Assembly: GCA_963716985.1 (NCBI GenBank)
Contig: OY970323.1
Coordinates: forward strand, 1,393,942-1,457,941
Reading direction: 5' to 3'
DNA: 64,000 bases
Source of the DNA: an uncultured bacterium
GTDB taxonomy: Bacteria; Chlamydiota; Chlamydiia; Chlamydiales; SM23-39
Positions 44,004 to 64,000 of the stretch are shown in pieces; within the stretch, counting starts at the first letter, position 1; the number at the start of each line of letters is the position of its first letter. The position numbers and the translations under genes were made by a program. Under the pieces are notes generated by a model that worked only from the letters and a program-made list of their open reading frames with translations, had not been told where the DNA came from and made no database searches.

Positions 44004-45311
44004 ATGCAATTTCCCCAGACGTTTTATTTGCGAACCTATGGCTGCCAGATGAATGAGCTGGACTCCGAGCTCATCGTCGGCCTGCTGGAAAACAGAGGCC
44101 TCCAAAGGGTGGAAAAGGAAGAAGAGGCCGACCTCATCCTTTTCAACACCTGCGCCGTTCGGGAAATGGCGGAAAACAAGGTGATCGGCAAGCTCGAGGA
44201 GATCTTTCATGAGGAAAAACGAGCTCTCATTGGCCTCGTAGGCTGTCTTGCGGTCGCAAAAAAAGAAGAACTTTTAAAAAAATTTCCCGGCCTCGATTTC
44301 CTCATAGGGCCCAAACAGCTCTCTCAGCTCAGCCAGATACTCGATGAAGCCATCGCTCAAAAAAAGACTATATCCCGGGTGGATGTGACCGCCTCTTCGG
44401 AAGCGGACTACGGCATGGCTAAAAGAGAGAGCAAGATCAAGGCCTACGTATCGATCATGCAGGGATGCAACAAGTTTTGCACCTATTGCATCGTCCCCTA
44501 TACGCGAGGGAGGGAAGTATCCAGAACACCCTCTTCCGTTTTAGAAGAGGTGAAAAAGCTAGTCTCATTGGGATACAGGGAAGTGACGCTCCTCGGTCAA
44601 AATGTGAACAGCTATGGAAAAGACCGCCCTGAGTGGAAAATCCTTTTCCCCGACCTTCTTTATCAGCTCAACGAAACGGGAATGAAGCGCATTCGCTTTT
44701 TGACCTCTCACCCCATCGACATTTCCATCGATCTCATGCAAGCGATTCGCGACCTGCCCTCCGTATGTGAATTTGTCCATTTTCCCTTGCAGTCGGGATC
44801 TACCCGCATCCTACAAAAAATGCACCGCATCTATACCAAAGAGGAGTATGCAGAAAAGGCAAGTCTTCTCAAGTCCATTGTTCCCGATGTGGCCCTCGGC
44901 ACCGACATCATCGTGGGCTTTCCCACCGAAACCGAAGAGGATTTTTTAGAAACTTTTTCTCTTTTTGAACAGGTGCGCTTTTCCGCCGCGTTCATCTTTG
45001 CCTATAGCCCCAGAAAGGGAACAAGCGCCGCTAGATTCGAAGACGACGTCCCCCTAAATACGAAAGAAGAAAGATTGCAGCGCATGCTCGCCCTCTATCA
45101 TAGAATCGATCGCGAAGAGAAAGAAAAACGTCTAGGCACTACTGCCGAAATACTCGTGGAGCGTTTCAACAAAGACCATCAAAAACTCAAAGGAAAAACA
45201 CGCCGCTTTGAAAAAGTCATTTTCGATGGAGATCCAAAAATGATCGGAACGCTTCAGAAAGTTCGGCTAGAGAGTTTTCAACACCAGACGTTTATTGCAA
45301 CGATTCTCTAA
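44004..45311 (+). CDS. miaB: tRNA-i6A37 methylthiotransferase MiaB
   Basis: UPF0004 N-domain (YLRTYGCQMNELDSE, FNTCAVRE), radical SAM CNKFCTYCIVP, and a C-terminal TRAM domain. Confidence 0.9.
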   Translation: MQFPQTFYLRTYGCQMNELDSELIVGLLENRGLQRVEKEEEADLILFNTCAVREMAENKVIGKLEEIFHEEKRALIGLVGCLAVAKKEELLKKFPGLDFLIGPKQLSQLSQILDEAIAQKKTISRVDVTASSEADYGMAKRESKIKAYVSIMQGCNKFCTYCIVPYTRGREVSRTPSSVLEEVKKLVSLGYREVTLLGQNVNSYGKDRPEWKILFPDLLYQLNETGMKRIRFLTSHPIDISIDLMQAIRDLPSVCEFVHFPLQSGSTRILQKMHRIYTKEEYAEKASLLKSIVPDVALGTDIIVGFPTETEEDFLETFSLFEQVRFSAAFIFAYSPRKGTSAARFEDDVPLNTKEERLQRMLALYHRIDREEKEKRLGTTAEILVERFNKDHQKLKGKTRRFEKVIFDGDPKMIGTLQKVRLESFQHQTFIATIL

Positions 45312-51535: not shown

Positions 51536-52768
51536 TTAGAGAGGGGTGGTTGACAAAATTTTTGCGACCAGATGTTCCTTTTGATTTTCCACGAGCTCTA
51601 CCAAAACAATCTCATTTGCAACTCCGGCATCAGAGCCCAGGCGCACGGGCAAATAGTTAGGAGTATATCCTTCTTTCCCCTTTCCCTCCAAAAGCAGCAG
51701 GGCTTTTTTTCCGACAAATTTTTCTCTTTGGCGATGGGCAACTCTTCTTGCAATTTCAAAAAGTTTTTGGCGCCGTTTTTGAATGACGGCATCCTCTACC
51801 TGTTCCGGCATGCGTTCTGCCGCCGTTTTTGGCCTTTTACTATAGGGAAATACATGGACCTTTGCAAAGCCGATTTTCTCTACAAGATCGATCGTTTGAA
51901 AAAAATCCTCTTCCGTTTCAGAGGGAAATCCCACAATGGCATCGGTTGTAAAACAAAAATCAGAAGATTTTTTTTGGATCTCATCTATCTTTTGCAGAAA
52001 CAACTCTCGGGTGTAGGGCCTTCGCATTTTTTTTAAAATCCCATTGCTTCCCGACTGCAGAACAAGATGCAAATGGGGCATCGTAGATCTTCCTTCCAGA
52101 AGAGCCTTCATTAATTCTTCATCTACGTGATTCGGCTCGATGGAAGAGAGGCGAACTCTTTGGACTTTGGGGTTTGCGTCTATCGCGCGGACAAGAGAGG
52201 GCAGGCCATATTGATACTCTCCGATATTTACACCGGTCAAGACGATTTCCTTATATCCTTTCTGCACAAGTGCCTCGATCTCACCTACAATATGTGCGAT
52301 GGGCCGGGAAATGGAAGGGCCTCTGAGCTGCGGGATGATGCAATAGGAGCAAAAAGCGCTGCAGCCGTCCTGAACCTTCACAAAGGCTCTTGTATGCCCC
52401 TGAAAATAGGAGATAAAATTTTTCTCGCATAAAAGCTTTTCCTCTCCGACCAAATGGGCGAGTATTGTTTCTTTTTCTCTTACCACTTCCACTCTAGGGT
52501 CGATGGCCGCAAGAGCGCCGCTATCTCTTCTAGCAAAACAGCCGAAGACAACAATTCTTGCTGACGGATGTTTCTTGCAAAGAGCGCGCACGCGGTTTTT
52601 ACAGCTTTTTTCTGCAGACAGAGTCACGCTGCAGCTGTGGACCAAGCAAATGTCCACATCTTTTTCAGACTCTTGAAAGCCTATCCCTTGCAGCTGTTCT
52701 CGAATCAGTTGGGATTCATACTGATTGAGTCTGCATCCAAAAGTTTCAATCAAAAATTTTTTTATCAT
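51536..52768 (-). CDS. mtaB: MiaB-like radical SAM methylthiotransferase (MtaB-type)
   Basis: ETFGCRLNQYESQ, HSCSVT, and CSAFCSYCIIP. It is shorter than MiaB and has a TRAM-like end. Confidence 0.75.
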   Translation of the reverse strand: MIKKFLIETFGCRLNQYESQLIREQLQGIGFQESEKDVDICLVHSCSVTLSAEKSCKNRVRALCKKHPSARIVVFGCFARRDSGALAAIDPRVEVVREKETILAHLVGEEKLLCEKNFISYFQGHTRAFVKVQDGCSAFCSYCIIPQLRGPSISRPIAHIVGEIEALVQKGYKEIVLTGVNIGEYQYGLPSLVRAIDANPKVQRVRLSSIEPNHVDEELMKALLEGRSTMPHLHLVLQSGSNGILKKMRRPYTRELFLQKIDEIQKKSSDFCFTTDAIVGFPSETEEDFFQTIDLVEKIGFAKVHVFPYSKRPKTAAERMPEQVEDAVIQKRRQKLFEIARRVAHRQREKFVGKKALLLLEGKGKEGYTPNYLPVRLGSDAGVANEIVLVELVENQKEHLVAKILSTTPL

Positions 52769-53674: not shown

Positions 53675-55105
53675 TCATTCTAATAGCTGTCCGAAATCAA
53701 TCACTTTATCAAAATACCTTTTATCCAAAACACTCTCCTCCACCCCATTCACATGTATAAGCACAGGTCTGATAGAGCAGTTTCTGGGGATTTTCAAATT
53801 CTTTATTTTCTTTTCCATTTCCTCAATGATTTTATTGCCGACCGGATTCTTAGAGAACTTAATCTCACATACATATAGATTAAGGAAACGAGTTTGGATC
53901 ATATAGTCAATTTGGCATCCGGCTTGCTTGGTCGTATGATTCTGAAAAAATGGACCTTCCATTACTATCTCTTCTGGAGAGATCCCTAACATCTTCCAGA
54001 GAGTTTTTCTATTATGGACAACAAGATTCTCAAATTGTAATCCCATGATACCTTCCCACCCAGGAAGTTGAGTTATTAAAGTGGAAAAACTTTCTTTCTC
54101 GATTTTAGAATGATTAGGAGCTATATATTTCAAATAAAAACGCAAATAATTATCACTTAATCGATAACGGCTCAATTTTCCTTCTTTTCCACTTTTCAGA
54201 TCCCATGTAAAGTCCCTTTTTACAAAGCCTGCCTTTACCAATTCATCTAAATGTTTGCTGAATATCCCCCCCAAACTTTTCCCTAATTCATCGCAAATTT
54301 GAACAAGCTCTTTTGAACCATTGGCAAGACAGAGGACAATTTCTTTATGACTAGCTTTACTACGAGAAAAAAGATCAGAGAATATCTCATCGAACTCTCT
54401 CACAAGCAATCCTCCTTTAGTAAAACAAAGATCTTGGATATTTCGTTCAGCGGGAAGATTTGGTTTGATTTGTTCCAAGTAAAGCGGGATACCTCCTATT
54501 ACAGATAAAAGTTTGAATTTTTCATAAGGAGTAATACGTTTTTCTTTTGGATGCCAGAAAGCATTGCAGACCCCTAATGGAAGTTCTTCAAGCACAAGAT
54601 CAAGGGTAATTCTTCCCAGAAATCCTGTATTGCTTAGGATATTCTTTTCAATCCATGAAGATACTGATCCACAAAGCGCAATAATTAGGTACGGATTTTT
54701 GCTAAAATACATATCCCAAGCAGTTTTCAAGTGTCCTAAAAAATGAGGATCTTTTCCCCCCATCCATGAAATTTCATCGAATACGATAAGGATTCGACCT
54801 TTTTTAGTTTCCTTGGAGAGATACCAAAAGAGATCGCTCCAATCATCTGGCTTAACGCCACGAATACCAGCTTTTTCAAGCTGACGTGCAAAATCATTAC
54901 GCTGAGTTTGAGCTGTTGTCTTGCGAACCGGAGGATTTCCAGAAAAAAAGTAGCTTTTTATCTCTTTCCCAAATTCTACAAGAAGTCTGCTTTTTCCAAT
55001 ACGTCTTCTACCCCTGACAACAATAAGGCTGGCGCTTTTCTTGTCTAAAAGCCCCTCAAGCCTTTTCATTTCAGCTTCACGTCCTATAAACTGAGACGGT
55101 TTCAT
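53675..55105 (-). CDS. AAA ATPase of the Arch_ATPase / DUF234 type
   Basis: FIGREAEMKRLEGLL...LIVVRGRRRIGKSRLL (Walker A), ILIVFDEISWM (Walker B), and a C-terminal DUF234-like region (IDYMIQTRFLNLYVCEIKFSKNPV). Confidence 0.75.
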   Translation of the reverse strand: MKPSQFIGREAEMKRLEGLLDKKSASLIVVRGRRRIGKSRLLVEFGKEIKSYFFSGNPPVRKTTAQTQRNDFARQLEKAGIRGVKPDDWSDLFWYLSKETKKGRILIVFDEISWMGGKDPHFLGHLKTAWDMYFSKNPYLIIALCGSVSSWIEKNILSNTGFLGRITLDLVLEELPLGVCNAFWHPKEKRITPYEKFKLLSVIGGIPLYLEQIKPNLPAERNIQDLCFTKGGLLVREFDEIFSDLFSRSKASHKEIVLCLANGSKELVQICDELGKSLGGIFSKHLDELVKAGFVKRDFTWDLKSGKEGKLSRYRLSDNYLRFYLKYIAPNHSKIEKESFSTLITQLPGWEGIMGLQFENLVVHNRKTLWKMLGISPEEIVMEGPFFQNHTTKQAGCQIDYMIQTRFLNLYVCEIKFSKNPVGNKIIEEMEKKIKNLKIPRNCSIRPVLIHVNGVEESVLDKRYFDKVIDFGQLLE

Positions 55106-55772: not shown

Positions 55773-57827
55773 TCATGGACGGGATGCAATGGCGTCATTT
55801 GACAAGGTAAAGAAATGCTCAAAAGGCATCTGTGCTATAAGTTCTCTTTCCGTCCTTGGAAAGGCTTGGAAAAAGAATGCGCTTGCTACGAATATAAATT
55901 TTTTCCGCGCCCGAGTGAGCGCCACATTAAATCGTCGATACTCCTTCAAAAAAGAACTATGGATCGTATCTTTATCAGAAACTGTAGCAGAGAAAATGAC
56001 AATATCGAATTCCAATCCTTGCATTCGCTCAACCGTATCAACCCTGGGCAGCGTTAATGAAAAAGGCAAAGCCTCTTTCAAAGCAGAGAGAATCGTATTA
56101 TTTTGCAATCGATGAGGAGAAATAATGCCAATTTGCTCATAGGAAACGGAGTAATCGTCAATCAGACGTTTCACGGCTTTCGCTATCCACTCAGCTTCCT
56201 CCGGAGAAGACTGCTGCGATCCCAAATGATCTAGCTGAACGACGACCATGGATTTAGATGGATCTAGATAGTCATCTAAAAGATCTCCAAATAACGGGTG
56301 GTGAGGTAGCTCAAATTTCTGATCTTTTTCAGCCACAACAGATTGTAGTTCGCCGTTGTACCACTGCTCACTTGCAAACTTACAAATATCCGCATTCATG
56401 CGATAGGTTTCATTCAAGCGCAAGTGGTTTTGAGCGCCGTATCGGGAAATCAATTCCTGTAATATGGAGCGAGGAGGAAGGAAGGTGTTCTCATAGTTTC
56501 CCTTCAACACGGGAGACAATTGCTGCGTATCTCCATAAAACAACGCTTTTCCCTTTCCAAAAATGAAACTTTGCAATGCGTAGGGGGTGAGGACTTGTGA
56601 CGATTCATCAAAAACAACCCAATCAAATAGTTGTGGAAAATTTTTATCCTCCAATAATTGATAAACCCCATACCCTGTAGCCCCAAGGATAAGACAAGAG
56701 CGGTCGTGAAGCGCTTCAGAACCATACATCTGGCCAATCCCCAAACTCGAGAATTGAGTCTCATCGAAGCGTCCATATTTCCATAAGGAAACACCGGAAA
56801 CGTTTGCCTCCGGAAGTGTTTTTGCGACTTTTCTGAGAATTTGATCGATCGCATGATGCGTCTGCGCCGTGACCAAAATCTTGATCGGGCGATTGAAAAA
56901 TTTTGCATGCGCTACTAGCGCAATAAGCGTCCATACGAGTAAGTGGGTCTTCCCGGTTCCCGGCGGTCCTTCAATGAATCCAATTTTTTCCCGAAAGGGC
57001 AGCGCTAAGGCTTGTTTTTGAAGGTGGTTCAATCCTGCAGCTAGAGCTCTTGATTGATACCACTGTTCTATCCAATGGGTTGCGTCGGATGCAAAACTTT
57101 TTGCATGCCCCAGAAGCATTTGAATCACTTCAGGGCAAAATTTTGGATCTTTTAATAGGTTTAAAACCCTGGCTATTTTCGGCGCATTCCAATCTGTTGC
57201 ATCCTCATCTAAGGCGTATAATTGATTTCTGCTAAAGCTCACCTTTTGAGATACAGGGCGCACAGAAAGAAGCCCCTGTTCCGGCGAATAGGTGTCGAGT
57301 ACTACAGAAAACCCGTCTTGAATTTGATCACTTCCAACCGGCGATAATTTTAAAAAATCTCCGACTCTAAATTTGGAAACTGTCGACTTTGCACCTATAG
57401 AAAATGAGAGGCCTTCTTTTTGCGCCGCGCCGCCAAGGAAACTGATAGGACCTATTGCTCGGAACTGTTTTACACGGTCCGGCAAGGGGTTTTTTTGAAA
57501 TGCGCAAATCTCGAAACCGCGGCACTCCGTTTCTCGGTGGTGCATCGCAAGATAAGCATGAATCAAAGGAACCGAGTGTGCTTTGTTGCCTTCAAACGAC
57601 ACCACACGCTGACTTTTCACGTTAGACAGACACCAGTTCCAAATGTGTCTACAAAGATCAAATGAAGCATCCGAAAAGGACTCCTTATGATACAAGCTGA
57701 GGGGTTGGATCGGGGAGGGGGAAAGACCCAAGCACGCCCCAACTTGCATCGCTGTGATACGTCCGTCAATGGGCCAAAGAAAATGGGTTTCCAACACAGT
57801 CTGGATAGCGGTCCAGGAAACATGCAT
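55773..57827 (-). CDS. C-terminal half of an IS-split giant gene: Upf1/Dna2-like SF1 helicase (AAA_11/AAA_12 type)
   Basis: GPPGTGKTH (Walker A), VVFDESSQV (motif II), YGDTQQLSPV, LNETYRMNADI, VERMQGLEFDIVIFS, and FNVALTRARKKF. The frame is continuous with 59520..62801 once the IS is removed. Confidence 0.85.
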   Translation of the reverse strand: MHVSWTAIQTVLETHFLWPIDGRITAMQVGACLGLSPSPIQPLSLYHKESFSDASFDLCRHIWNWCLSNVKSQRVVSFEGNKAHSVPLIHAYLAMHHRETECRGFEICAFQKNPLPDRVKQFRAIGPISFLGGAAQKEGLSFSIGAKSTVSKFRVGDFLKLSPVGSDQIQDGFSVVLDTYSPEQGLLSVRPVSQKVSFSRNQLYALDEDATDWNAPKIARVLNLLKDPKFCPEVIQMLLGHAKSFASDATHWIEQWYQSRALAAGLNHLQKQALALPFREKIGFIEGPPGTGKTHLLVWTLIALVAHAKFFNRPIKILVTAQTHHAIDQILRKVAKTLPEANVSGVSLWKYGRFDETQFSSLGIGQMYGSEALHDRSCLILGATGYGVYQLLEDKNFPQLFDWVVFDESSQVLTPYALQSFIFGKGKALFYGDTQQLSPVLKGNYENTFLPPRSILQELISRYGAQNHLRLNETYRMNADICKFASEQWYNGELQSVVAEKDQKFELPHHPLFGDLLDDYLDPSKSMVVVQLDHLGSQQSSPEEAEWIAKAVKRLIDDYSVSYEQIGIISPHRLQNNTILSALKEALPFSLTLPRVDTVERMQGLEFDIVIFSATVSDKDTIHSSFLKEYRRFNVALTRARKKFIFVASAFFFQAFPRTERELIAQMPFEHFFTLSNDAIASRP

Positions 57828-57842
57828 AGCCCATAATGATTT

Positions 57843-59519
57843 GGGTGCACCTGTTTTAGAACGACTCCATATTTCATAGATAAAAATAAGAAATTCAAAA
57901 AAATTTTAGTGTAATAAAAATTAGTTTTTTCGTAGCCTATCTGCATTAATCGAAAAATTAGGCAAAAAATGTCTACTCTTTTCCGAACCTCAGCACAGGT
58001 TTTTTTAGCATTGACTCAACACATGGGTTCACGAGAAACTATGAGCATGAGACATAGTTCAATAGAAAATATCATATCAACCGACATTCGAGAGCTTTCA
58101 CGCAACATTTTCGAAGAGCATATAGACTTACGTAATCTCGGAGAGGTAGGAGACAGTATCGTGGGTTCTGATGGGGTAGTGCGTACCCACAAAAGAATTC
58201 TCGAGAGAGTACTTGTGTGTCTGTTTGGCAATGTGACCATTAGAAGACTGGGATATGGAGCACGTGGACATAACAGTTTATTTCCTAAGGATGCCATCCT
58301 TAATCTCCCTATCGAGTCTTATTCTCATGGGATTAGAAAGCTTGTAGCTCAAGAAGCCGCGAGGGGTCCTTTTAATGAGGTCATGGAGGTAGTAAAACGG
58401 ATAACAGGTGTTGCTCTGCCCAAAAAAACGATAGAGCTGTTGACTCGTAAAGCAGCTGTGGATTTTGACACATTTTATGAGCAAAAACTAACCATGAAGC
58501 AACCTTCAGTCAAACAACTTCCCCTGCTTATTTTAACGACAGATGGCAAGGGTATTGTAATGCGCCATGAAGATTTGCGAGAAGCGACTCGAAAAAAAGC
58601 GGAACAAGGCAAGCACAAGTTGAATAAAAGAATGTCAAAGGGAGAAAAGGCCAACGCGAAAAGAATGGCAACAGTTGCATCTGTGTATAGCATAGATAGA
58701 TTTCTGCGTACTGCAGAACAAATCGTTATGGAGATGAAAGCTTCAGAAGTACCAATTGTTCGTCCTCGTCCTTCAGAGAAAAGAGTTTGGGCAAGTATTG
58801 AGCACACATCTGACAAAGTCACAGCCGATATCTTTGAAGAAGCATTGCATAGGGATCCTAAACAAGAGCAAGAATGGGTTTGTTTATTGGATGGAGATCC
58901 AAGGCAACTAAAAAGAATACGATCAACCGCGAAGAAAAAGGGAATAAAAATTACGATTGTAATGGATGTGATTCATGTCATTGAATATCTATGGAAAGCA
59001 GCACGTGTATTTCATGAGGAAACTAGCCCGGAAGTCGAGACATGGGTCTCGGAGCGTTTGCTGGCTGTTTTGCGGGGAAATCCTGGGCAAGTAGCTGCCG
59101 GAATACGGAGATCAGCAACATTGCGAAAAATTCCCGCGGCACAGAGAGCTCCGATAGAGAAATGTGCTGGGTACTTACTTAAAAACAAACCTTATTTACA
59201 GTATCACCGCTATCTTCAAAAAGGGTTTCCGATAGCTACAGGAATTATAGAAGGAGCTTGTCGCCATTTAATCAAAGATAGAATGGATATAACGGGAGCT
59301 CGTTGGAGTTTGCAAGGAGCGGAGGCAATAGTGAGATTGCGTTCGCTCAGATCTAGTGGAGATTTTGAGGACTACTGGAGATTTCATGAGGAACAAGAAT
59401 TTGTGCGTAATCATAAGTCACTCTATGCAGATCCGAGAATTCTTGATAAAGTACAATAAATTACTGGTGAAAATTTCTAGCTCTCTATGAAAAGTCGTCG
59501 TTCTAAAACAGGTGCACCC
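57843..59519 (+). mobile_element. ISKra4-like insertion sequence (1677 bp) with 23-bp perfect terminal inverted repeats and 9-bp target duplication
   Basis: IR GGGTGCACCTGTTTTAGAACGAC at 57843-57865 has its reverse complement at 59497-59519. The direct repeat TAATGATTT lies at 57834-57842 and 59520-59528. Confidence 0.9.
57969..59459 (+). CDS. ISKra4-family-like transposase
   Basis: A 496-aa ORF fills the IS. The C-terminal block GIIEGACRHLIKDRMDITGARWSLQGAEAIVRLRSLRSSGDFEDYW is characteristic of ISKra4-type transposases. The family assignment is from memory. Confidence 0.7.
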   Translation: MSTLFRTSAQVFLALTQHMGSRETMSMRHSSIENIISTDIRELSRNIFEEHIDLRNLGEVGDSIVGSDGVVRTHKRILERVLVCLFGNVTIRRLGYGARGHNSLFPKDAILNLPIESYSHGIRKLVAQEAARGPFNEVMEVVKRITGVALPKKTIELLTRKAAVDFDTFYEQKLTMKQPSVKQLPLLILTTDGKGIVMRHEDLREATRKKAEQGKHKLNKRMSKGEKANAKRMATVASVYSIDRFLRTAEQIVMEMKASEVPIVRPRPSEKRVWASIEHTSDKVTADIFEEALHRDPKQEQEWVCLLDGDPRQLKRIRSTAKKKGIKITIVMDVIHVIEYLWKAARVFHEETSPEVETWVSERLLAVLRGNPGQVAAGIRRSATLRKIPAAQRAPIEKCAGYLLKNKPYLQYHRYLQKGFPIATGIIEGACRHLIKDRMDITGARWSLQGAEAIVRLRSLRSSGDFEDYWRFHEEQEFVRNHKSLYADPRILDKVQ

Positions 59520-62500
59520 TAATGATTTCAATACCGTCGACTGAAAAGTTCTTTGAAAAAGATGCCAGTCTATTGATTCATAAACGAGAAAGTGTGGATT
59601 TTTTCCCCGGTTAACAGATTGAATCCACTCTTTTCGCAATTGGCTTGCCATTTCCCTTTGAAATGTCTCCTCATTTGAAAAATCTCGTGAACGAATACAA
59701 ACATCATTGATCGACACCCCATTTTCCCAGCACTGCCACCGGACGCTCTCGCGATCGTAGTGGATGAAGTACCACTGTTTGGAATTTTTTGGGAAATCAT
59801 TGGATTCGATATTCCGTGAAACAATCATCCGATTGTTCGGAGTTGTTGCGTTATTAAAAAGAGTCTCTTGGTAGCAGTAAGAAAAATAACAACACGATGT
59901 ACAGGAAAATTCCATAGAATAGTCTTGAACGGCTGAACTCCTCCCGGAATCTGTTTTCCACTGAGCCAATAACCGGGGCATCCAAGCTCTATAAGGAGCC
60001 AATATAAACGAGGCTTTTTCAAATAGCTTTTCGCGGTCCATAGGACGGTAAACAAGCCCACCCAGAGCGGAGACCCTTACCGGAAGCAAAAACGTTTCTC
60101 CATTCAAAAGGCGATCTAGCAGATAGGCGTAAAAGGCGATCCTCCATTTTTGTGCATAACTGATTGATTGAGAAAATTTGATATCCCAAACCTCTAAGCA
60201 AATATGAGATCCTTGATGTTGAATATAGATTAAATCCGGAGTTCCGCTTATCGAACCTTCGACCTTAAGTTTTGCCTGCGCCAGAAAAAGAGGCTTTTTG
60301 TCCAATACAACTGTTCGAATGGCCTCTTGCCATGTCAATTCTGCTGTTTCAAAACAGACGTTCGCTTGATTCTGCAAGGCCTCTATCACTTCCTTTTTGA
60401 AAGCGATCCCTTGTTGCCGTCGAGATTGGATTTCTTGATCAATCCCGGAGAAGCGAGGGTGAGGCTCTATTTGGTAGTCAAGTTGCTGCAATCGAGCCCA
60501 TCTTGGACACAGATTCTGAGTCACATAACCTTGAACCTGCGTCGCAGTCAATGAGAGAGGCAAAATCTGTCCATCCGAAGAAATTTCGGGAAAAGAAAGT
60601 ATGCCCCATGCATTTTTTTCATTTTCTAGAGACCAGGGTTCCCCTTTCAGATCGATGCGATGGGTCGCTATTTTTTTTTCCTCATCCACAAGGGGGGGAC
60701 AGGGAAGCCACTTAGATTCTGAAACGTACCTCTGAAAGTGTTTTAAAACTCTAGGGTCGTGGAGACGAGAGCCGATCTCTTTCCGTTGATGCTCTTCCGG
60801 CAGCCAATACAGCCAACTATTCCAAGAAAATCCCCCTTTCAGCAAAGGCAAATGAGAGGATATCCACTCCTGAAATTGCTCAACCGTATGAGGAATTTTT
60901 AGGAATGCAAAGGGAATCCATTCGTTACATTCAAGACCCATCTCATCGAAATTCATTGATAATCCCTCTATTTTAGAGGCAAACTGCTTTTCGATAAGGT
61001 GGTAGAGGATATAATTTGCGACTGATCCTAAAAATGTTTCATAGCGATACGTTCCATTTCCTAGTCGATGAACCCGAATACCATTTGGCTCTTCAAGAGA
61101 TCTAGCTATTTTCTCTCTCTCCTTCTCCAGGAGCTGCCCGGTGCGACTTAATAGACCTCGGGGTGTAAATTTGTCTAAAAGAATCGCACCCATTTTTTGC
61201 GCCACCTCAAAAGGAGTTGAAGGTCCAAATCCCATCCAAACCAATTCCTTGCTTGCGGGCTCATTCGACTCTTTAACCAAAACCTCAAGAGCGGCCCTCT
61301 TCTCTTCAATGCGAAGAACTCTTAACACCTTTCCCGTTAATCGAATGAGATCGCCTACCTTTAATTGCCTCACCACCGACAGGGGTAAAACAGCAATTTT
61401 TTCATATTCCAAAATCACATCATACTCTTCGTCAGTCGGTGGAAAATTGCTCCATATTTGCTTCCTTTTCAATGACGAAAAATAACGCCATCCTCCACCG
61501 CATATCCCGGGCTGCTTTGCCGGTTTGAGCCAATTGTTGGCAAGCATATGATGAAAAATGCAGGACAAATCCTGCGATTTTTCTTTGAAAAGCAGGTTTA
61601 ACGAATCGTTTGATAATGCTTTTTTCGCGTAGAGGCAAGATAAAATTTGCTGAAATAGCACGCTGTAATTCTCTGAGCTGCGGCATTTTTCTACCCGATG
61701 TTCTTTTGCGAGTTCAAAAAAAGCTAAAAAGCGAACGAGTTGCATCCCTGCGCTTTGTCCATAGCAAATTCCCCAGAAGTTCATGTATTGCTGGCGACGG
61801 TTGCCGCGCCCAATCCTTTGTAAAAACCCCATTGTAGAGGGGGGCGGTCCCATCAGCACTACGCCATCTACATCCCCGATATCAATCCCTAACTCTAGGG
61901 TGCTTGTTGCAATGCAAACTCCCATTTTTCCATCTCTAAACGAAGCCTCGATGAACTTTCTCTCTTGAGTAGAAAAATTAGAGTAATGTAAAAAAACTTT
62001 CTGAGAAAAAACACCTTCTTGATTCAGGATATTGTATAATTGCTCGCATTTTTTTCGACTATTCGCAAACACTAAAAGTTTTTTACAACCCGATCGGCGA
62101 TATAAGTCATCGAAAAGCAGCGTCAGCTCTCGCTCTTCATCTTCAATGTGCACCCAGCACGGTTGCAGCGTCCTGGCAACAGACTGCTTATAGTAAAAGG
62201 AGGTCTTGCTAAGATTAAAAAACCGCATGATATCTTCTGCATTGTCAATCGTAGCAGACAATGCAACGGTTTGTAGCGGTCCGATAGACTGCATTGCAAG
62301 CCGATGATGCAGATACGATAACTGACGCCCTCGGTCATCATGAAGAAACACGTGCACTTCATCGATAATCATCATATGCACATGCTTGAGAAAATATTTA
62401 TTATCCTGATTCGGGCTCCCCAGCATCACATCTAATGATTCGGGAGTCATGATGAGAAGATGAGGCTTTGCATCCAGAAGGTGTTTTCCATCGCCCGTTC

Positions 62501-62801
62501 GAATGCCTGATTTCAAGCCTAGCTTCTTATAGATAGGCTTAATCCTTCGATTCATATCCAAAGCTAAAGCGCGGGTGGGAACGATGTAGATGATGGTAAA
62601 ATGATCAGGATAGATCATCAGCTTTTCAGTTGCCGGAGCAAGGACAGCCTCTGTTTTCCCGGCTCCCGTGCCTGCCTGCAGTATGACATCCTCTCCATTA
62701 AGAATAGGTTGAATCAACTGTTTTTGCGCAGCTGTGAGAGTGGAAAAACCGGAAAAAAAAGCGCGATACGTGTTAGGAAGCAGTTCTAATGGAGAAGTCA
62801 C
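59418..62801 (-). CDS. N-terminal part of an IS-split giant gene: Lhr-like DEAD/DEAH SF2 helicase fused to a Cas4/AddB-type Fe-S PD-(D/E)XK nuclease (native sequence 59520..62801; last 33 codons are IS-derived)
   Basis: AGTGAGKT (motif I), DEVH (II), SAT (III), QRIGRGNRR (VI). The nuclease module has LCPRW...TPDLIY...LEVWDIKFS...QKWRIAFYAYLL...CTSCCYFSYC (CX2CX5C). The GTG start overlaps the upstream stop (GTGA). Confidence 0.85.
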   Translation of the reverse strand: MTSPLELLPNTYRAFFSGFSTLTAAQKQLIQPILNGEDVILQAGTGAGKTEAVLAPATEKLMIYPDHFTIIYIVPTRALALDMNRRIKPIYKKLGLKSGIRTGDGKHLLDAKPHLLIMTPESLDVMLGSPNQDNKYFLKHVHMMIIDEVHVFLHDDRGRQLSYLHHRLAMQSIGPLQTVALSATIDNAEDIMRFFNLSKTSFYYKQSVARTLQPCWVHIEDEERELTLLFDDLYRRSGCKKLLVFANSRKKCEQLYNILNQEGVFSQKVFLHYSNFSTQERKFIEASFRDGKMGVCIATSTLELGIDIGDVDGVVLMGPPPSTMGFLQRIGRGNRRQQYMNFWGICYGQSAGMQLVRFLAFFELAKEHRVEKCRSSENYSVLFQQILSCLYAKKALSNDSLNLLFKEKSQDLSCIFHHMLANNWLKPAKQPGICGGGWRYFSSLKRKQIWSNFPPTDEEYDVILEYEKIAVLPLSVVRQLKVGDLIRLTGKVLRVLRIEEKRAALEVLVKESNEPASKELVWMGFGPSTPFEVAQKMGAILLDKFTPRGLLSRTGQLLEKEREKIARSLEEPNGIRVHRLGNGTYRYETFLGSVANYILYHLIEKQFASKIEGLSMNFDEMGLECNEWIPFAFLKIPHTVEQFQEWISSHLPLLKGGFSWNSWLYWLPEEHQRKEIGSRLHDPRVLKHFQRYVSESKWLPCPPLVDEEKKIATHRIDLKGEPWSLENEKNAWGILSFPEISSDGQILPLSLTATQVQGYVTQNLCPRWARLQQLDYQIEPHPRFSGIDQEIQSRRQQGIAFKKEVIEALQNQANVCFETAELTWQEAIRTVVLDKKPLFLAQAKLKVEGSISGTPDLIYIQHQGSHICLEVWDIKFSQSISYAQKWRIAFYAYLLDRLLNGETFLLPVRVSALGGLVYRPMDREKLFEKASFILAPYRAWMPRLLAQWKTDSGRSSAVQDYSMEFSCTSCCYFSYCYQETLFNNATTPNNRMIVSRNIESNDFPKNSKQWYFIHYDRESVRWQCWENGVSINDVCIRSRDFSNEETFQREMASQLRKEWIQSVNRGKNPHFLVYESIDWHLFQRTFQSTVLKSLGCTCFRTTTFHRELEIFTSNLLYFIKNSRICIE

Positions 62802-63952
62802 ACTGAAGTATCCAACAGAACATGTTGGGTTTCCCTATCGAGTTTATTCACTAATGCCTTTAACTTAAATCGAGTCTCTTGAGCTTCAAGTTTACCTAGC
62901 AAAGATTGCAAGCTCGCCTTTACTTGTAAAGGAAGGTCGATTTGATAAGCTTGAGAATAAAGTTGCATGAGGCGGTCGAGCAAAGATTCCCATCCATGAG
63001 AAGAAAAGTCTTGAAGGCGCAGAATATGTAAATCCCGCCAAGCCTCTGCATAATTCTTGGGAAAATTGTCATCGTACGTCTCATGATTAGCTTTATCAAA
63101 AAAATCGTCCGTAAACGCAAATACGGGAAATACAGAACTTTTGGTTTGAAAAAACTGATCTAAAAGATGATAACTTTTTACTCGATGGCCCAATCGTCCC
63201 TGTGCAATCGATTCCGCTTCATCAAAAAACAGCAGCAATCCCTTGTACCCCATTTCTTTTAGGACCCTTCCTAAGGATTGAACCATTTGAAAATAGGAGT
63301 CATTCCCACGGCAAATCAGAGATTGCTCCCGATAGCCTTCGACTTCCCGATATTTGCAGACATTCCTGAGATGCGCGACAGGTATGTCATATCCCATCAA
63401 CGCTTTGTCGAGCCAATACCCATACTCCTTTGGCCGATAAGCTTGATGCTTCTTCAATGAACTCTCCTTTGGAGTGAGCCGCTTGTTCTTACAAAGCATT
63501 GCAGTGAGTGTTATCCTAAAGCGATGAGGCATAGTGCTTAAAAGCTCCGGGCAATCCTTGTGAGCGCAATTTCTCCACGCATTCGTAAATTTTTGACCAT
63601 CCGGCAAAGAAAGTCTTTCCATGATTGACCGATAAACAATAGAAAATCGATGGAAAGGAACTTCTCTTAAATCTAATTGAACGACACTCGTAGCATAACC
63701 TTGAGAAAGGGCTAATTGATTCAAATAAGTTAACGTGTGTGATTTTCCCTGCCCATAAGATCCGCAAACACACAAGTGATCCGACTTTCCTTTTTCTAGT
63801 GCCTTTAGACCTTTAGAAAAAACATTTTCGATTCGATCCTTTTCCACGGTCAGGTAATTCACTGCTACCGGATCAAATAATCCGTCCCGTAGTCGTTCAA
63901 CAGCGCGCCTTAGAGAAAATCGATCCACGTTAAGCATCCCAAACCGGTTCAA
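62798..63952 (-). CDS. BrxD-like P-loop ATPase (DUF2791 / BREX ATP-binding domain type)
   Basis: RRAVERLRDGLFDPVAVNYLTVEKDRIE...HLCVCGSYGQGKSHTL (Walker A) and GLLLFFDEAES (Walker B). The layout matches the DUF2791 family. The start is TTG 63952 or ATG 63937. Confidence 0.7.
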   Translation of the reverse strand: MNRFGMLNVDRFSLRRAVERLRDGLFDPVAVNYLTVEKDRIENVFSKGLKALEKGKSDHLCVCGSYGQGKSHTLTYLNQLALSQGYATSVVQLDLREVPFHRFSIVYRSIMERLSLPDGQKFTNAWRNCAHKDCPELLSTMPHRFRITLTAMLCKNKRLTPKESSLKKHQAYRPKEYGYWLDKALMGYDIPVAHLRNVCKYREVEGYREQSLICRGNDSYFQMVQSLGRVLKEMGYKGLLLFFDEAESIAQGRLGHRVKSYHLLDQFFQTKSSVFPVFAFTDDFFDKANHETYDDNFPKNYAEAWRDLHILRLQDFSSHGWESLLDRLMQLYSQAYQIDLPLQVKASLQSLLGKLEAQETRFKLKALVNKLDRETQHVLLDTSV

Positions 63953-64000
63953 GTTGACGTGTTTTTTCTATTTCCGCTTCTTTATGGCTTTCCAACAGGT
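63930..64000 (-). CDS. 3' end of an upstream gene running off the window (unknown function)
   Basis: The frame ...LLESHKEAEIEKTRQLEPVWDA* is open to the window edge. Its TAA (63930-63932) overlaps the ATG at 63937 (ATGCTTAA), suggesting translational coupling. Only 23 codons are visible. Confidence 0.35.
   Translation of the reverse strand, partial: LLESHKEAEIEKTRQLEPVWDA

What the first reader, a model, noticed from the sequence alone, without database searches (positions are those of the whole stretch)
55773..62801. Unusual domain architecture: SF2 (Lhr-like) helicase + Fe-S Cas4/AddB-type nuclease + SF1 (Upf1/Dna2-like) helicase in one polypeptide
The reconstructed protein carries two different helicase motors flanking a nuclease. 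Residues ~40-335 hold DEAD/DEAH motifs (AGTGAGKT, DEVH, SAT, QRIGRGNRR). Residues ~755-980 hold a PD-(D/E)XK module with four cysteines. The C-terminal ~400 residues hold SF1 motifs ([37 protein letters not shown]). The nuclease plus SF1 portion alone mirrors the Dna2 layout, with a Fe-S RecB-type nuclease N-terminal to an SF1B helicase. Fusing an Lhr-like SF2 motor in front of it is a combination I do not recognise as a described family. Dual-motor helicase-nucleases such as AddAB and RecBCD are normally multi-subunit, so a single-chain version would be mechanistically interesting. The linker around the IS site (WYFIHYDRES...HFLVYESIDWHLF) vaguely resembles the RNase H-like domain of TM0106-type RecB-like nucleases, but that is speculative.
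Basis: partly seen in the sequence, partly recalled or inferred. Interest (0 to 1): 0.9.

Follow-up and report, generated by a model that had tools for sequence, protein, structure and literature searches.

The report
IS-split helicase–nuclease–helicase giant gene
A 1,780-residue protein joining two different DNA motors to an iron-sulfur-type nuclease really is encoded here, cut in two by a jumping gene; it belongs to an unnamed four-gene cassette found in several bacterial phyla that probably chews up DNA for defence or repair.

Summary
Removing a 1,677-bp ISKra4-family insertion and one copy of its 9-bp target duplication restores one 1,780-aa minus-strand ORF.

- **N-terminus:** a Ski2/Lhr-type SF2 helicase, best matched by the BREX BrxHI and Shango SngC profiles.
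- **Middle:** a Cas4/Dna2-type PD-(D/E)XK nuclease with the C…CxxCx5C cysteine pattern, followed by an RNase H-like fold that looks degenerate in this lineage.
- **C-terminus:** a beta-barrel and stalk, then a Dna2/Upf1-type SF1B helicase.

The architecture is not a one-off. Intact 1,750–2,000-aa orthologues occur in Chlamydiota, Legionellales, Latescibacterota, Desulfobacterota, SAR324 and others, all with generic names.

In about 50 of 85 related loci the gene is the last of a conserved cassette: an orphan-fold ~280-aa protein, two BrxD-like AAA+ ATPases, then the giant. The window holds the second ATPase and the tail of the first.

My best reading is an AAA+-loaded, two-motor DNA helicase-nuclease on a Dna2-like chassis. 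Its role is probably defence against foreign DNA, with DNA repair as the main rival. It is disrupted in this genome. I found no curated family or paper describing it. I rate it a new variant of a known kind, of moderate-to-high interest.

The parts
59529..62801 (-). 5' part of the disrupted giant gene (codons 1-1091; GTG start overlapping the upstream stop as GTGA)
55773..57842 (-). 3' part of the disrupted giant gene (codons 1092-1780 plus stop)
61797..62735 (-). SF2 (Ski2/Lhr/BrxHI-type) helicase core, residues 23-335
   Evidence: Pfam DEAD and Helicase_C; PDB Brr2/Lhr matches; invariant D147-E148, motif VI Q328-R336
60921..61796 (-). BrxHI/SngC/Lhr-core-like accessory domains following the SF2 core, residues 336-627
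   Evidence: PADLOC BrxHI profile positions 21-628 of 698 match residues 18-627, E 7e-92; SngC 3e-73
59847..60557 (-). Cas4/Dna2-type PD-(D/E)XK nuclease with C765...C967xxC970x5C976, D856, D873-x-K875; residues 749-985
59529..59813 (-). RNase H-like fold domain, N-terminal part (residues 997-1091), cut by the IS
   Evidence: model pLDDT 85-90; TIGR03491 in homologues; alignment; this segment (1010-1100) is absent from Simkania-type orthologues
57609..57842 (-). RNase H-like fold domain, C-terminal part (residues 1092-1169)
57048..57566 (-). Stalk helices and beta-barrel (KFRVGDFLKLSP...) preceding the SF1 core, residues 1184-1356
   Evidence: model secondary structure; Foldseek matches to Dna2, Upf1, IGHMBP2; invariant R1250, G1252-K1256
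55866..57032 (-). SF1B (Dna2/Upf1-type) helicase core, residues 1362-1750
   Evidence: Pfam AAA_11/AAA_12; PDB Dna2 4e-23, Upf1, IGHMBP2, Sen1; PADLOC MkoA 8e-46
57843..59519 (+). ISKra4-family insertion sequence, 1,677 bp; inverted repeats 57843-57865 and 59497-59519; transposase ORF 57969..59459
57834..57842 (.). Target-site duplication TAATGATTT, left copy
59520..59528 (.). Target-site duplication TAATGATTT, right copy
62798..63937 (-). BrxD-like AAA+ ATPase no. 2 (D2), Walker A GSYGQGKS and Walker B LLFFDE, translationally coupled to the giant gene
   Evidence: Pfam BrxC_BrxD 2.8e-25; PADLOC BrxD 5e-27, SngB 1.4e-9; NCBIfam BREX_BrxD 92 bits, below the cutoff of 350
63930..64000 (-). Last 22 codons and stop of BrxD-like ATPase no. 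1 (D1), running off the window edge
   Evidence: Tail LLESHKEAEIEKTRQLEPVWDA* matches the D1 C-terminus in L087; the full g1-D1-D2-giant order is seen in L091/L092, which are 100% identical to the window over 2,317 bp

Best explanation
**What it is.** The region is one gene for a 1,780-aa multi-enzyme protein. An ISKra4-family element has recently cut it in two, so it is probably non-functional in this genome.

**The cassette.** The intact protein is the effector of a conserved four-gene cassette: an orphan ~280-aa protein (g1), BrxD-like AAA+ ATPase 1 (D1), BrxD-like AAA+ ATPase 2 (D2), then the giant gene.

**Shown:**
- The protein is a BrxHI/SngC/Lhr-type SF2 helicase fused to the front of a pre-existing TM0106-like/Dna2-like chassis.
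- That chassis has a Cas4-type nuclease with four conserved Cys, an RNase H-like fold, a beta-barrel with stalk, and an SF1B helicase.
- Both motors, the D...D-x-K nuclease triad and the four Cys are conserved down to 36-37% identity.

**Inferred mechanism:**
- The two BrxD-like ORC/Cdc6-type ATPases, possibly with g1, recognise a DNA substrate and load or license the giant protein.
- The SF2 motor tracks 3'-to-5' on one strand, as Lhr does.
- The SF1B motor tracks 5'-to-3' on the other strand, as Dna2 and Bad do.
- The molecule would therefore move in one direction along duplex DNA from an end or nick, like RecBCD but as a single chain, while the nuclease degrades ssDNA threaded through it.

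**Inferred role.** The most likely role is degradation of foreign DNA (phage, plasmid or other mobile-element DNA). It would be a BREX-type-2/Shango-related helicase module that carries its own nuclease.
For: **Architecture and IS:**

**Module assignments:**
- The SF2 part is BrxHI/SngC-like over residues 18-627 and Ski2/Lhr-like in the PDB.
- The SF1 part is Dna2/Upf1-like.
- The nuclease is supported by fold and motifs and by Cas4/PDDEXK_1/TM0106 profile hits in homologues.
- Catalytic residues of both motors and the nuclease are invariant across 29 sequences.

**Origin of the fusion:**
- Proteins of 1,240-1,430 aa carry the Cas4-like + RNase H-like + AAA_11/AAA_12 layout with no SF2 part.
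- One variant has an RNase_T N-terminus instead.

**Cassette:**
- The order g1-D1-D2-giant occurs in about 50 of 85 loci across phyla, with differing flanks.
- D1 and D2 both keep Walker A and B motifs.
- The D2 stop and giant start overlap as GTGA.

**Known precedents:**
- BrxD-BrxHI is a tightly linked dyad in type-2 BREX, and BrxD has been proposed as a helicase loader (PMC12839542).
- Lhr is a 3'-to-5' helicase (title of ref 92 in PMC12839542).
- Bad, the bacterial Dna2-like enzyme, is a 5'-to-3' Fe-S helicase-nuclease whose gene sits next to a type III-like methyltransferase (PMC7430649).

**Defence-like context:**
- An integrase and an HTH+M78 peptidase lie next to the cassette in L087.
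- RelE/HTH genes lie nearby in L004.
- A PIN toxin gene and a small upstream ORF sit between D2 and the giant in L088.
- Transposase fragments occur in L090.
- A PADLOC PDC-S27 candidate lies directly downstream in the window.
- Legionellales copies are 59-77% identical to the chlamydial ones, while Simkania is only about 47% identical, which implies horizontal transfer.
- The gene is inactivated by an IS here.
Against: - No activity, polarity, Fe-S cluster or phenotype has been measured for any family member. Polarity and loading are inferred from relatives.
- Sequence conservation is unusually high for a defence gene. g1 is 63-89% identical across chlamydial lineages.
- Two related Latescibacterota-like loci share identical housekeeping flanks, which fits a vertically inherited repair function.
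- None of the BREX core (PglX, PglZ, BrxC) or the Shango TerB protein was seen in the window or in any of the 13 relative loci with called genes.
- About 15 loci carry the giant gene with no g1/D1/D2 within reach, so the ATPases are not always required.
- In the chlamydial clade, including this window, a His-Glu pair upstream of the catalytic Asp is replaced by Phe-Lys, and one member has K875N. Nuclease activity in this lineage is therefore uncertain.
- The structural model has pTM 0.46, so inter-domain geometry is unknown.
Confidence: 0.5

Rival explanations
1. This is a housekeeping DNA double-strand-break or fork-processing machine. It would be a single-chain functional analogue of RecBCD/AddAB/AdnAB, or of the eukaryotic Dna2 plus RecQ-type helicase pair. 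The AAA+ pair would act as a loader at damaged DNA.
For: - The protein has opposite-polarity motor types flanking a Dna2/AddB-type nuclease.
- Purifying selection is strong on all four genes.
- Latescibacterota-like loci L001 and L004 share conserved housekeeping flanks, including an HhH-GPD glycosylase upstream and a ComM-like Mg-chelatase ATPase downstream.
- In Simkania the cassette lies next to the mur/ftsW cluster.
- Lhr-core helicases are linked to DNA damage responses (TIGR04121 name).
Against: - The phyletic distribution is patchy, with apparent transfer between Chlamydiota and Legionellales.
- Flanks vary and often include mobile-element or toxin-antitoxin genes.
- The nearest profile matches are defence components: BrxHI, SngC, BrxD, SngB and MkoA.
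- The gene is dispensable enough to be IS-disrupted here.
Confidence: 0.28
2. This is an RNA- or R-loop-directed system. The Lhr-type motor would unwind RNA:DNA hybrids and the Upf1-like motor would act on RNA, as proposed for the Mokosh MkoA helicase. The nuclease would cleave displaced nucleic acid.
For: - The C-terminal helicase matches MkoA (8e-46) and MkoC, and the Upf1/IGHMBP2/Sen1 RNA helicases.
- Mycobacterial Lhr is described as an RNA:DNA helicase (ref 92 title).
- An RNase H-like fold lies between the nuclease and the SF1 motor.
Against: - The best solved match of the SF1 core is the DNA enzyme Dna2.
- The whole nuclease-barrel-SF1B layout is Dna2-like.
- The RNase H-like domain lacks a conserved acidic catalytic set in this clade and is half-deleted in Simkania-type forms.
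- Cas4/Dna2/AddB-type nucleases act on DNA (established knowledge).
Confidence: 0.12
3. The 'single polypeptide' is an artefact. On this reading, two or three adjacent genes were wrongly joined when the IS was excised in silico, or the locus is a decayed pseudogene with no functional meaning.
For: In this window the gene really is split, and no uninterrupted allele of this strain was found. Two other assemblies that are 100% identical over 2.3 kb break or diverge inside the gene at codon ~373.
Against: - More than 100 uninterrupted orthologues of 1,750-2,000 aa cover 99-100% of the reconstructed sequence.
- Excision at the exact inverted-repeat and duplication boundaries restores the frame, with no other stops or frameshifts.
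- Every column that is invariant across the family is also intact in the window sequence.
Confidence: 0.02

Closest known systems
Dna2 (eukaryotes) and Bad, the bacterial DNA2-like helicase-nuclease of Geobacillus stearothermophilus (PMC7430649)
   Same: The order of modules matches: a 4-Cys PD-(D/E)XK nuclease N-terminal to a beta-barrel/stalk and an SF1B helicase. The Dna2 helicase domain is the best solved sequence match (4e-23), and Dna2 aligns to the model over 661 columns. Bad is a 5'-to-3' motor with an Fe-S cluster.
   Different: This protein carries an additional ~630-residue SF2 helicase module in front and an RNase H-like fold between the nuclease and the barrel. It is encoded with two AAA+ ATPases. 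Direct orthology to Bad was not tested.
BrxD-BrxHI dyad of type-2 (and type-6) BREX
   Same: The N-terminal 18-627 matches the BrxHI profile almost end to end (7e-92). D1 and D2 match BrxD (1e-43 and 1e-25). The ATPase is immediately upstream of the helicase, as in BREX (PMC12839542).
   Different: - No PglX, PglZ, BrxC or PglW was seen in any locus examined.
- There are two BrxD paralogues instead of one.
- An orphan first gene is present.
- The helicase is extended by about 1,150 residues of nuclease and SF1B helicase.
- NCBIfam BREX_BrxD scores 92 bits against a cutoff of 350.
Shango (SngA TerB protein, SngB ATPase, SngC helicase)
   Same: SngC matches residues 17-621 (3e-73) and SngB matches D1 (3e-32). 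Both are small cassettes with the order accessory protein, ATPase, helicase.
   Different: g1 shows no TerB signal in Pfam or PADLOC and no PDB fold match. Shango has a single ATPase and no fused nuclease or SF1B motor.
TM0106-family RecB-like putative nucleases (TIGR03491), alone or fused to AAA_11/AAA_12 helicases
   Same: The Cas4-like domain is followed by an RNase H-like domain. TIGR03491 hits 6 of 14 family members. Proteins of 1,240-1,430 aa with this N-terminus plus an SF1 C-terminus are the next-nearest relatives.
   Different: Those proteins lack the SF2 module. The window protein itself does not reach detection by TIGR03491. The family is uncharacterised, so it gives no functional anchor.
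RecBCD / AddAB / AdnAB end-processing helicase-nucleases
   Same: RecBCD combines motors of opposite polarity with a RecB-family nuclease, and AddB carries an Fe-S nuclease. AddB appears among the structural matches (4cej_B).
   Different: Those enzymes are multi-subunit and built from SF1A UvrD-like motors (plus the SF1B RecD in RecBCD). Here there is a single chain with SF2 and Upf1-like SF1B motors, no evidence of Chi recognition, and dedicated AAA+ partners.

Membership tests
Lhr / Lhr-core (TIGR04121, NF007284) | The whole-protein score reaches the curated equivalog cutoff | tested here: not met
   TIGR04121 scores 190 bits against a cutoff of 850, and NF007284 scores 87 bits against 1,496. 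Only the RecA-like core aligns to M. smegmatis Lhr in the PDB (1e-25).
BREX BrxHI helicase | Sequence match to the BrxHI profile across the helicase core, wHTH, barrel and C-terminal domain | tested here: met
   PADLOC PDLC02503: E 7e-92, profile positions 21-628 of 698 on residues 18-627.
BREX BrxHI helicase | Encoded within a BREX locus (PglX methyltransferase, PglZ, BrxC, and PglW in type 2) | tested here: not met
   None of these was found in the window neighbours or in the annotated relative loci.
Shango | Three genes: a TerB-domain SngA, the SngB ATPase and the SngC helicase | tested here: not met
   SngC-like (3e-73) and SngB-like (3e-32) parts are present. g1 has no TerB hit at E<=1 in Pfam, no PADLOC hit at E<=0.1, and no PDB fold match.
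Dna2 / Bad-type nuclease-helicase | PD-(D/E)XK nuclease with a 4-Cys cluster motif, N-terminal to a beta-barrel/stalk and an SF1B helicase | tested here: met
   The pattern C765...C967xxC970x5C976 and D856/D873/K875 are conserved. Fold matches include Dna2 5ean_A at 7.7e-5. The Dna2 helicase domain matches at 4e-23.
Dna2 / Bad-type nuclease-helicase | Bound Fe-S cluster, 5'-to-3' translocation and ssDNA nuclease activity | not testable with these tools
   This needs biochemistry. The activities are inferred from Bad (PMC7430649).
Cas4 (CRISPR adaptation) | Cas4-type nuclease domain | tested here: inconclusive
   Pfam Cas_Cas4 hits 5 of 14 homologues (best 4.5e-5) and TIGR00372 hits 4 of 14. 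The window protein itself gives no hit. The fold matches Cas4 7mi5_A.
Cas4 (CRISPR adaptation) | Association with cas1/cas2 or a CRISPR locus | tested here: not met
   No cas genes appear among the neighbours in any annotated locus.
TM0106 family RecB-like nuclease (TIGR03491) | Cas4-like domain followed by an RNase H-like (RNase_H_2-type) domain | tested here: inconclusive
   TIGR03491 hits 6 of 14 family members (best 1.2e-10) but not the window protein. The RNase H-like fold is modelled at pLDDT 85-90. Acidic residues are not conserved in the chlamydial clade.
Mokosh MkoA | Full-length MkoA architecture, with a PLD-nuclease partner or fusion | tested here: not met
   The match covers only the C-terminal helicase (profile 772-1081 of 1,112). 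No PLD domain was found.
RecBCD / AddAB | UvrD-like SF1A motor(s) in a multi-subunit complex | tested here: not met
   The motors are SF2 and Upf1-like SF1B. UvrD-family Pfam hits are marginal overlaps with the P-loop region. The protein is a single chain.
ISKra4-family insertion sequence | ISKra4 transposase above the curated cutoff, terminal inverted repeats and a target-site duplication | tested here: met
   NF033572 scores 326 bits against a cutoff of 205. There are perfect 23-bp inverted repeats and a 9-bp duplication.

The most novel reading that the evidence does not exclude
The cassette is a previously unrecognised, phylogenetically widespread system. A heteromeric ORC/Cdc6-like AAA+ pair and an orphan-fold subunit would load a single-chain, RecBCD-like bipolar motor onto DNA. 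That motor combines a 3'-5' SF2 helicase, an Fe-S nuclease and a 5'-3' SF1B helicase. The system would form a new class of end-processing machine, used for immunity or for repair. It would link the unexplained BrxD-BrxHI module of BREX and Shango to a concrete nuclease effector.
Probability: 0.35. Interest if true: 0.75.

Novelty: new variant of a known kind. Interest (0 to 1): 0.6.

Why it matters
- **BREX and Shango.** The role of the BrxD-BrxHI pair in type-2 BREX and of SngB-SngC in Shango is unknown. Here the same ATPase-helicase module is wired directly to a Dna2-like nuclease-helicase. That suggests what the module does (load a translocase onto target DNA for degradation) and gives a self-contained system in which to test it.
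- **Enzymology.** A single polypeptide with two motors of presumably opposite polarity around a 4-Cys nuclease would be a compact model for how bipolar translocation and cleavage are coordinated. In RecBCD that problem needs three subunits.
- **Evolution.** The family shows stepwise assembly: TM0106-like nuclease, then an SF1B helicase, then an SF2 helicase or an RNase T.
- **Experimental access.** Cultured Desulfobacter isolates carry intact copies, so experiments are feasible.
- **This genome.** The finding is simply a recently IS-inactivated gene.

Tried and rejected
- **Pfam, NCBIfam and a PDB sequence search on the window mid-region.** No nuclease hit came from Pfam or NCBIfam for the window sequence itself, and the PDB profile search gave only a chance eS27 match. 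The nuclease had to be shown through homologues and a structural model.
- **g1 as a TerB/SngA equivalent, which would make this a Shango variant.** Rejected. There is no Pfam or PADLOC hit, and a confident model (pLDDT 82) has no PDB match better than E 0.4.
- **CRISPR Cas4 or BREX membership.** Rejected for lack of any cas or BREX core genes nearby.
- **Artefactual fusion.** Rejected because of the intact orthologues.
- **Other IS copies in the window.** There are none.
- **Literature.** Searches for DUF2791, BrxHI/BrxD, Shango/SngC, TM0106+helicase, Lhr+Cas4, Cas4 phylogenomics, Dna2-like bacterial enzymes, Lhr-like anti-phage and SF1B+SF2 single polypeptide found no description of this architecture or cassette. 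The library is incomplete, so absence is not proof.
- **RecBCD/AddAB in host genomes.** I did not test whether host genomes lack these enzymes.

Full report
**1. The observation**

The region holds two long minus-strand ORFs, 62801..59418 and 57827..55773. A plus-strand 496-aa ORF lies between them.

The intervening DNA is a classic insertion sequence.
- It spans 57843..59519 (1,677 bp).
- It has perfect 23-bp terminal inverted repeats. The repeat occurs only at these two sites in the window, with none expected by chance.
- A 9-bp direct duplication, TAATGATTT, flanks it.
- Its ORF is an ISKra4-family transposase, scoring 326 bits against a cutoff of 205.

Removing the element and one duplication copy restores one 1,780-aa ORF, joined after residue 1091, with no other stop or frameshift. 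The perfect repeats and the otherwise intact frame suggest a recent insertion.

**2. The protein, domain by domain**

*SF2 helicase (N-terminus).*
- Pfam finds DEAD (23-190, 2e-38) and Helicase_C (233-335, 7e-17).
- The N-terminal 18-627 matches the PADLOC BrxHI profile almost end to end (7e-92) and SngC of Shango (3e-73).
- Lhr-core models score far below their cutoffs, 190 bits against 850.
- Its solved relatives are the Ski2-like helicases Brr2 and ASCC3 and mycobacterial Lhr.

*SF1B helicase (C-terminus).*
- Pfam finds AAA_11 (from residue 1362) and AAA_12 (1549-1745, 3e-34).
- The best solved match of the C-terminal part is the helicase domain of Dna2 (4e-23), followed by Upf1/Nam7, IGHMBP2 and Sen1.
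- It is therefore a Upf1-like SF1B motor.

*Nuclease (middle).* Pfam does not see it in the window sequence, so I tested it three ways.
- Conservation. In a 29-sequence alignment reaching 37% identity, C765, R767, D856, D873, C967, C970, C976 and Y977 are invariant, and K875 is conserved in at least 90%. This gives the Cas4/AddB/Dna2 pattern C...CxxCx5C with a D...D-x-K triad.
- Profile hits in homologues. Cas_Cas4 hits 5 of 14, PDDEXK_1 hits 3 of 14, TIGR00372 cas4 hits 4 of 14, and TIGR03491 (TM0106 family) hits 6 of 14.
- Structure. An AlphaFold model of residues 600-1360 has mean pLDDT 74, with 85-92 over the nuclease and the following domain. Its best PDB matches are Cas4 (2.9e-6), Dna2 (7.7e-5, 661 columns), MGME1 and AddB. 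In the viral library it matches Cas4-like and PD-(D/E)XK proteins.

*RNase H-like domain and barrel.*
- After the nuclease comes a domain, roughly residues 997-1169, with weaker structural matches to RNase H-like folds (Prp8 RNase H-like domain, TEFM C-terminal domain).
- Stalk helices and a beta-barrel follow. These match Upf1 and IGHMBP2 in the fold search.

*Caveats for this lineage.*
- Non-chlamydial members keep a His-Glu pair on a helix N-terminal to the catalytic Asp. From memory of RecB-type nucleases, I take this to be the metal-binding motif I.
- They also keep HxTDL and SLFHxD motifs in the RNase H-like domain, and a ~53-residue insert after the nuclease that looks helix-hairpin-helix-like by eye.
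- In the chlamydial clade, including this window, the His-Glu pair is Phe-Lys and the acidic residues of the RNase H-like domain are not conserved.
- Simkania-type orthologues lack residues 1010-1100 altogether. The IS junction (residue 1091) falls inside that segment.

**3. A family, not a singleton**

- A search of 5.8 billion proteins returned 754 hits at E<=1e-10.
- More than 100 are uninterrupted 1,750-2,000-aa proteins covering 99-100% of the query at 36-87% identity.
- One scan of species-representative genomes found 100 loci, of which the best 80 were kept. They come from Chlamydiota (Rhabdochlamydia, Simkania, Waddliaceae), Legionellales, Verrucomicrobiae, Latescibacterota, many Desulfobacterota including cultured Desulfobacter strains, SAR324, Methylococcales and Electrothrix.
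- Sources name them only 'DEAD/DEAH box helicase', 'Lhr-like helicase', or 'SF2 helicase/predicted RecB family nuclease'.
- Legionellales copies are 59-77% identical to the window's mid-region, while the chlamydial genus Simkania is only about 47% identical. This points to horizontal transfer among amoeba-associated bacteria.

An exhaustive profile search of 1.84 billion cluster representatives shows how the architecture arose.
- The top tier is this family, with the match starting near residue 600.
- The next tier is proteins of 1,240-1,430 aa in which the same Cas4-like + RNase H-like region sits at the N-terminus, followed by AAA_11/AAA_12. They have no SF2 part.
- One variant carries an RNase_T exonuclease in front instead.
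- The finding's protein is therefore a BrxHI-type helicase fused onto a TM0106-like/Dna2-like chassis.

**4. Context: a four-gene cassette**

In the window:
- The gene immediately upstream (62798..63937, minus strand) is a BrxD-like AAA+ ATPase: Pfam BrxC_BrxD 2.8e-25, PADLOC BrxD 5e-27 and SngB 1.4e-9.
- Its stop overlaps the giant gene's GTG start as GTGA.
- The last 22 codons of another BrxD-like gene run off the window edge.

In relatives:
- The conserved unit is g1 (about 280 aa, no Pfam or PADLOC hit), then D1 (full-length BrxD-like, 1e-43), then D2 (a diverged BrxD-like), then the giant gene.
- A local profile search of all 85 loci then in hand found this order in about 50.
- One locus has a rotated order.
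- About 15 loci have the giant gene without partners in reach.
- Contigs 100% identical to the window over 2.3 kb carry g1-D1-D2-giant.

About the partner proteins:
- D1 and D2 both keep Walker A and B motifs across more than 50 loci.
- g1 is strongly conserved, at 63-89% identity among the 120 listed hits, which are largely chlamydial by the names given.
- g1 yields a confident model (pLDDT 82, pTM 0.67) with no PDB fold match better than E 0.4. It is not a detectable TerB protein.

About the flanks:
- They differ between lineages. Examples are mur/ftsW in Simkania, BamA/LpxD in L089, and sulfatases and TonB in L001/L004.
- They often include mobile or toxin-antitoxin genes: an integrase and HTH+M78 peptidase (L087); RelE/HTH (L004); a PIN toxin gene and a small ORF inserted between D2 and the giant (L088); transposase fragments (L090).
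- In the window the next gene downstream (53675..55105) matches the PADLOC defence candidate PDC-S27 over its full length (2.7e-82).

**5. Most likely mechanism**

*Shown:* the domain set, the conservation of both ATPase sites, the nuclease triad and the four Cys, and the linkage to two AAA+ ATPases.

*From the literature:*
- BrxD and BrxHI form a tightly linked dyad in type-2 BREX. BrxD is an ORC/Cdc6-type AAA+ proposed to load or activate the helicase (PMC12839542).
- Lhr is a 3'-to-5' helicase (reference title).
- Bad, the bacterial DNA2-like enzyme, has an Fe-S cluster, 5'-to-3' SF1B translocation and ssDNA nuclease activity, and its gene sits beside a type III-like methyltransferase (PMC7430649).

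*Inferred:*
- The D1/D2 pair, perhaps with g1, recognises a DNA substrate and loads the giant protein.
- The SF2 and SF1B motors track the two antiparallel strands in the same overall direction, as RecB and RecD do.
- The nuclease degrades threaded ssDNA.

I favour a role in degrading foreign DNA (confidence about 0.5). The reasons are that the closest profile relatives are defence components, the contexts are variable and rich in mobile elements, the distribution is patchy with apparent transfer, and the gene is dispensable here.

The main rival (about 0.28) is a RecBCD/AddAB-like repair function. High sequence conservation and stable housekeeping flanks in some clades support it. An RNA- or R-loop-directed role is possible but less likely (about 0.12).

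**6. Comparison with known systems and novelty**

- The protein works like a Dna2/Bad nuclease-helicase with an extra BrxHI-type motor.
- It is not a member of BREX, because no PglX, PglZ or BrxC was seen.
- It is not Shango, because there is no TerB protein.
- It is not CRISPR Cas4, because there are no cas genes.
- It is not Lhr proper, because curated cutoffs are not met.
- It is not RecBCD/AddAB, because the motor families differ and it is a single chain.
- I found no curated model or paper describing the architecture or the cassette. The literature library is incomplete, however, and two fold libraries were unavailable.

I class it as a new variant of a known kind. It is a real, conserved, undescribed combination of known modules. 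In this genome it is an IS-inactivated copy.

Interest is 0.6. It remains well above ordinary because of the dual-motor single chain, the dedicated AAA+ pair, the orphan-fold partner, and the bearing on the unexplained BrxD-BrxHI and SngB-SngC modules.

Noticed in passing
window 53675..55105 (-): The gene directly downstream of the disrupted giant gene matches the PADLOC phage-defence candidate PDC-S27 over its full length (2.7e-82). It has an archaeal-type ATPase_2 domain. This hints that the region is a small defence island.
   Followed up: partly
window 61683/61684; L091 and L092: Two other public assemblies are 100% identical to the window from 64000 down to 61684. They then diverge inside the giant gene at about codon 373. 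L092 continues with GTAACCGTCTAATCTACCCATCTTTTTCC, which is absent from the window. This could be a second, different insertion in a sister population or an assembly break. The two assemblies may come from the same sample.
   Followed up: partly
window 59529-59813 and 57609-57842 (residues ~1010-1100): The IS junction (residue 1091) lies inside the segment (1010-1100) that Simkania-type orthologues have deleted. This part of the RNase H-like domain may therefore be dispensable. Whether the two halves could still function separately is unknown.
   Followed up: no
L087:6748-7587 and equivalents (g1), just beyond the window edge: The first gene of the cassette encodes a ~280-aa protein that is very strongly conserved. 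Motifs such as DFPRFxVLKGI and SLQSKxFFQNMDKGKFxGYS persist across phyla. It has no Pfam or PADLOC hit. Its confident AlphaFold model has no PDB fold match.
   Followed up: yes
L088:8505-9229: In one Desulfobacterota-type locus a PIN-domain toxin gene and a small upstream ORF are inserted between the second BrxD-like ATPase gene and the giant gene.
   Followed up: no
P0320 (1,669 aa): A relative of the TM0106-like + SF1B chassis carries an N-terminal RNase_T (DnaQ-like) exonuclease instead of the SF2 helicase. The chassis therefore accepts alternative N-terminal fusions.
   Followed up: no
L027/L086, L040, L043, L049, L050, L052, L061, L066, L082 and others: About 15 loci, mostly Desulfobacterota and including Electrothrix and Deltaproteobacteria TL4, carry a full-length giant gene but no g1/D1/D2 within about 8 kb on either side. 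This may be a partner-independent subfamily.
   Followed up: partly
L008, L010, L014 versus L016: Legionellales MAG copies are closer to the window's chlamydial protein (59-77% identity) than the chlamydial genus Simkania is (~47%). This suggests transfer between amoeba-associated lineages, or mis-binning.
   Followed up: no
L013, L044, L046, L047, L057, L062, L068, L071, L083: The giant gene is split into two or three ORFs in nine related loci. Several are long-read MAGs, so these could be sequencing frameshifts rather than true pseudogenes.
   Followed up: no
window 44004..45311 (+) and 51536..52768 (-): Two paralogous UPF0004 + radical-SAM (MiaB/RimO-type methylthiotransferase-like) genes lie within 8 kb of each other. 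ligA and glgB lie between them. These are ordinary housekeeping content.
   Followed up: no
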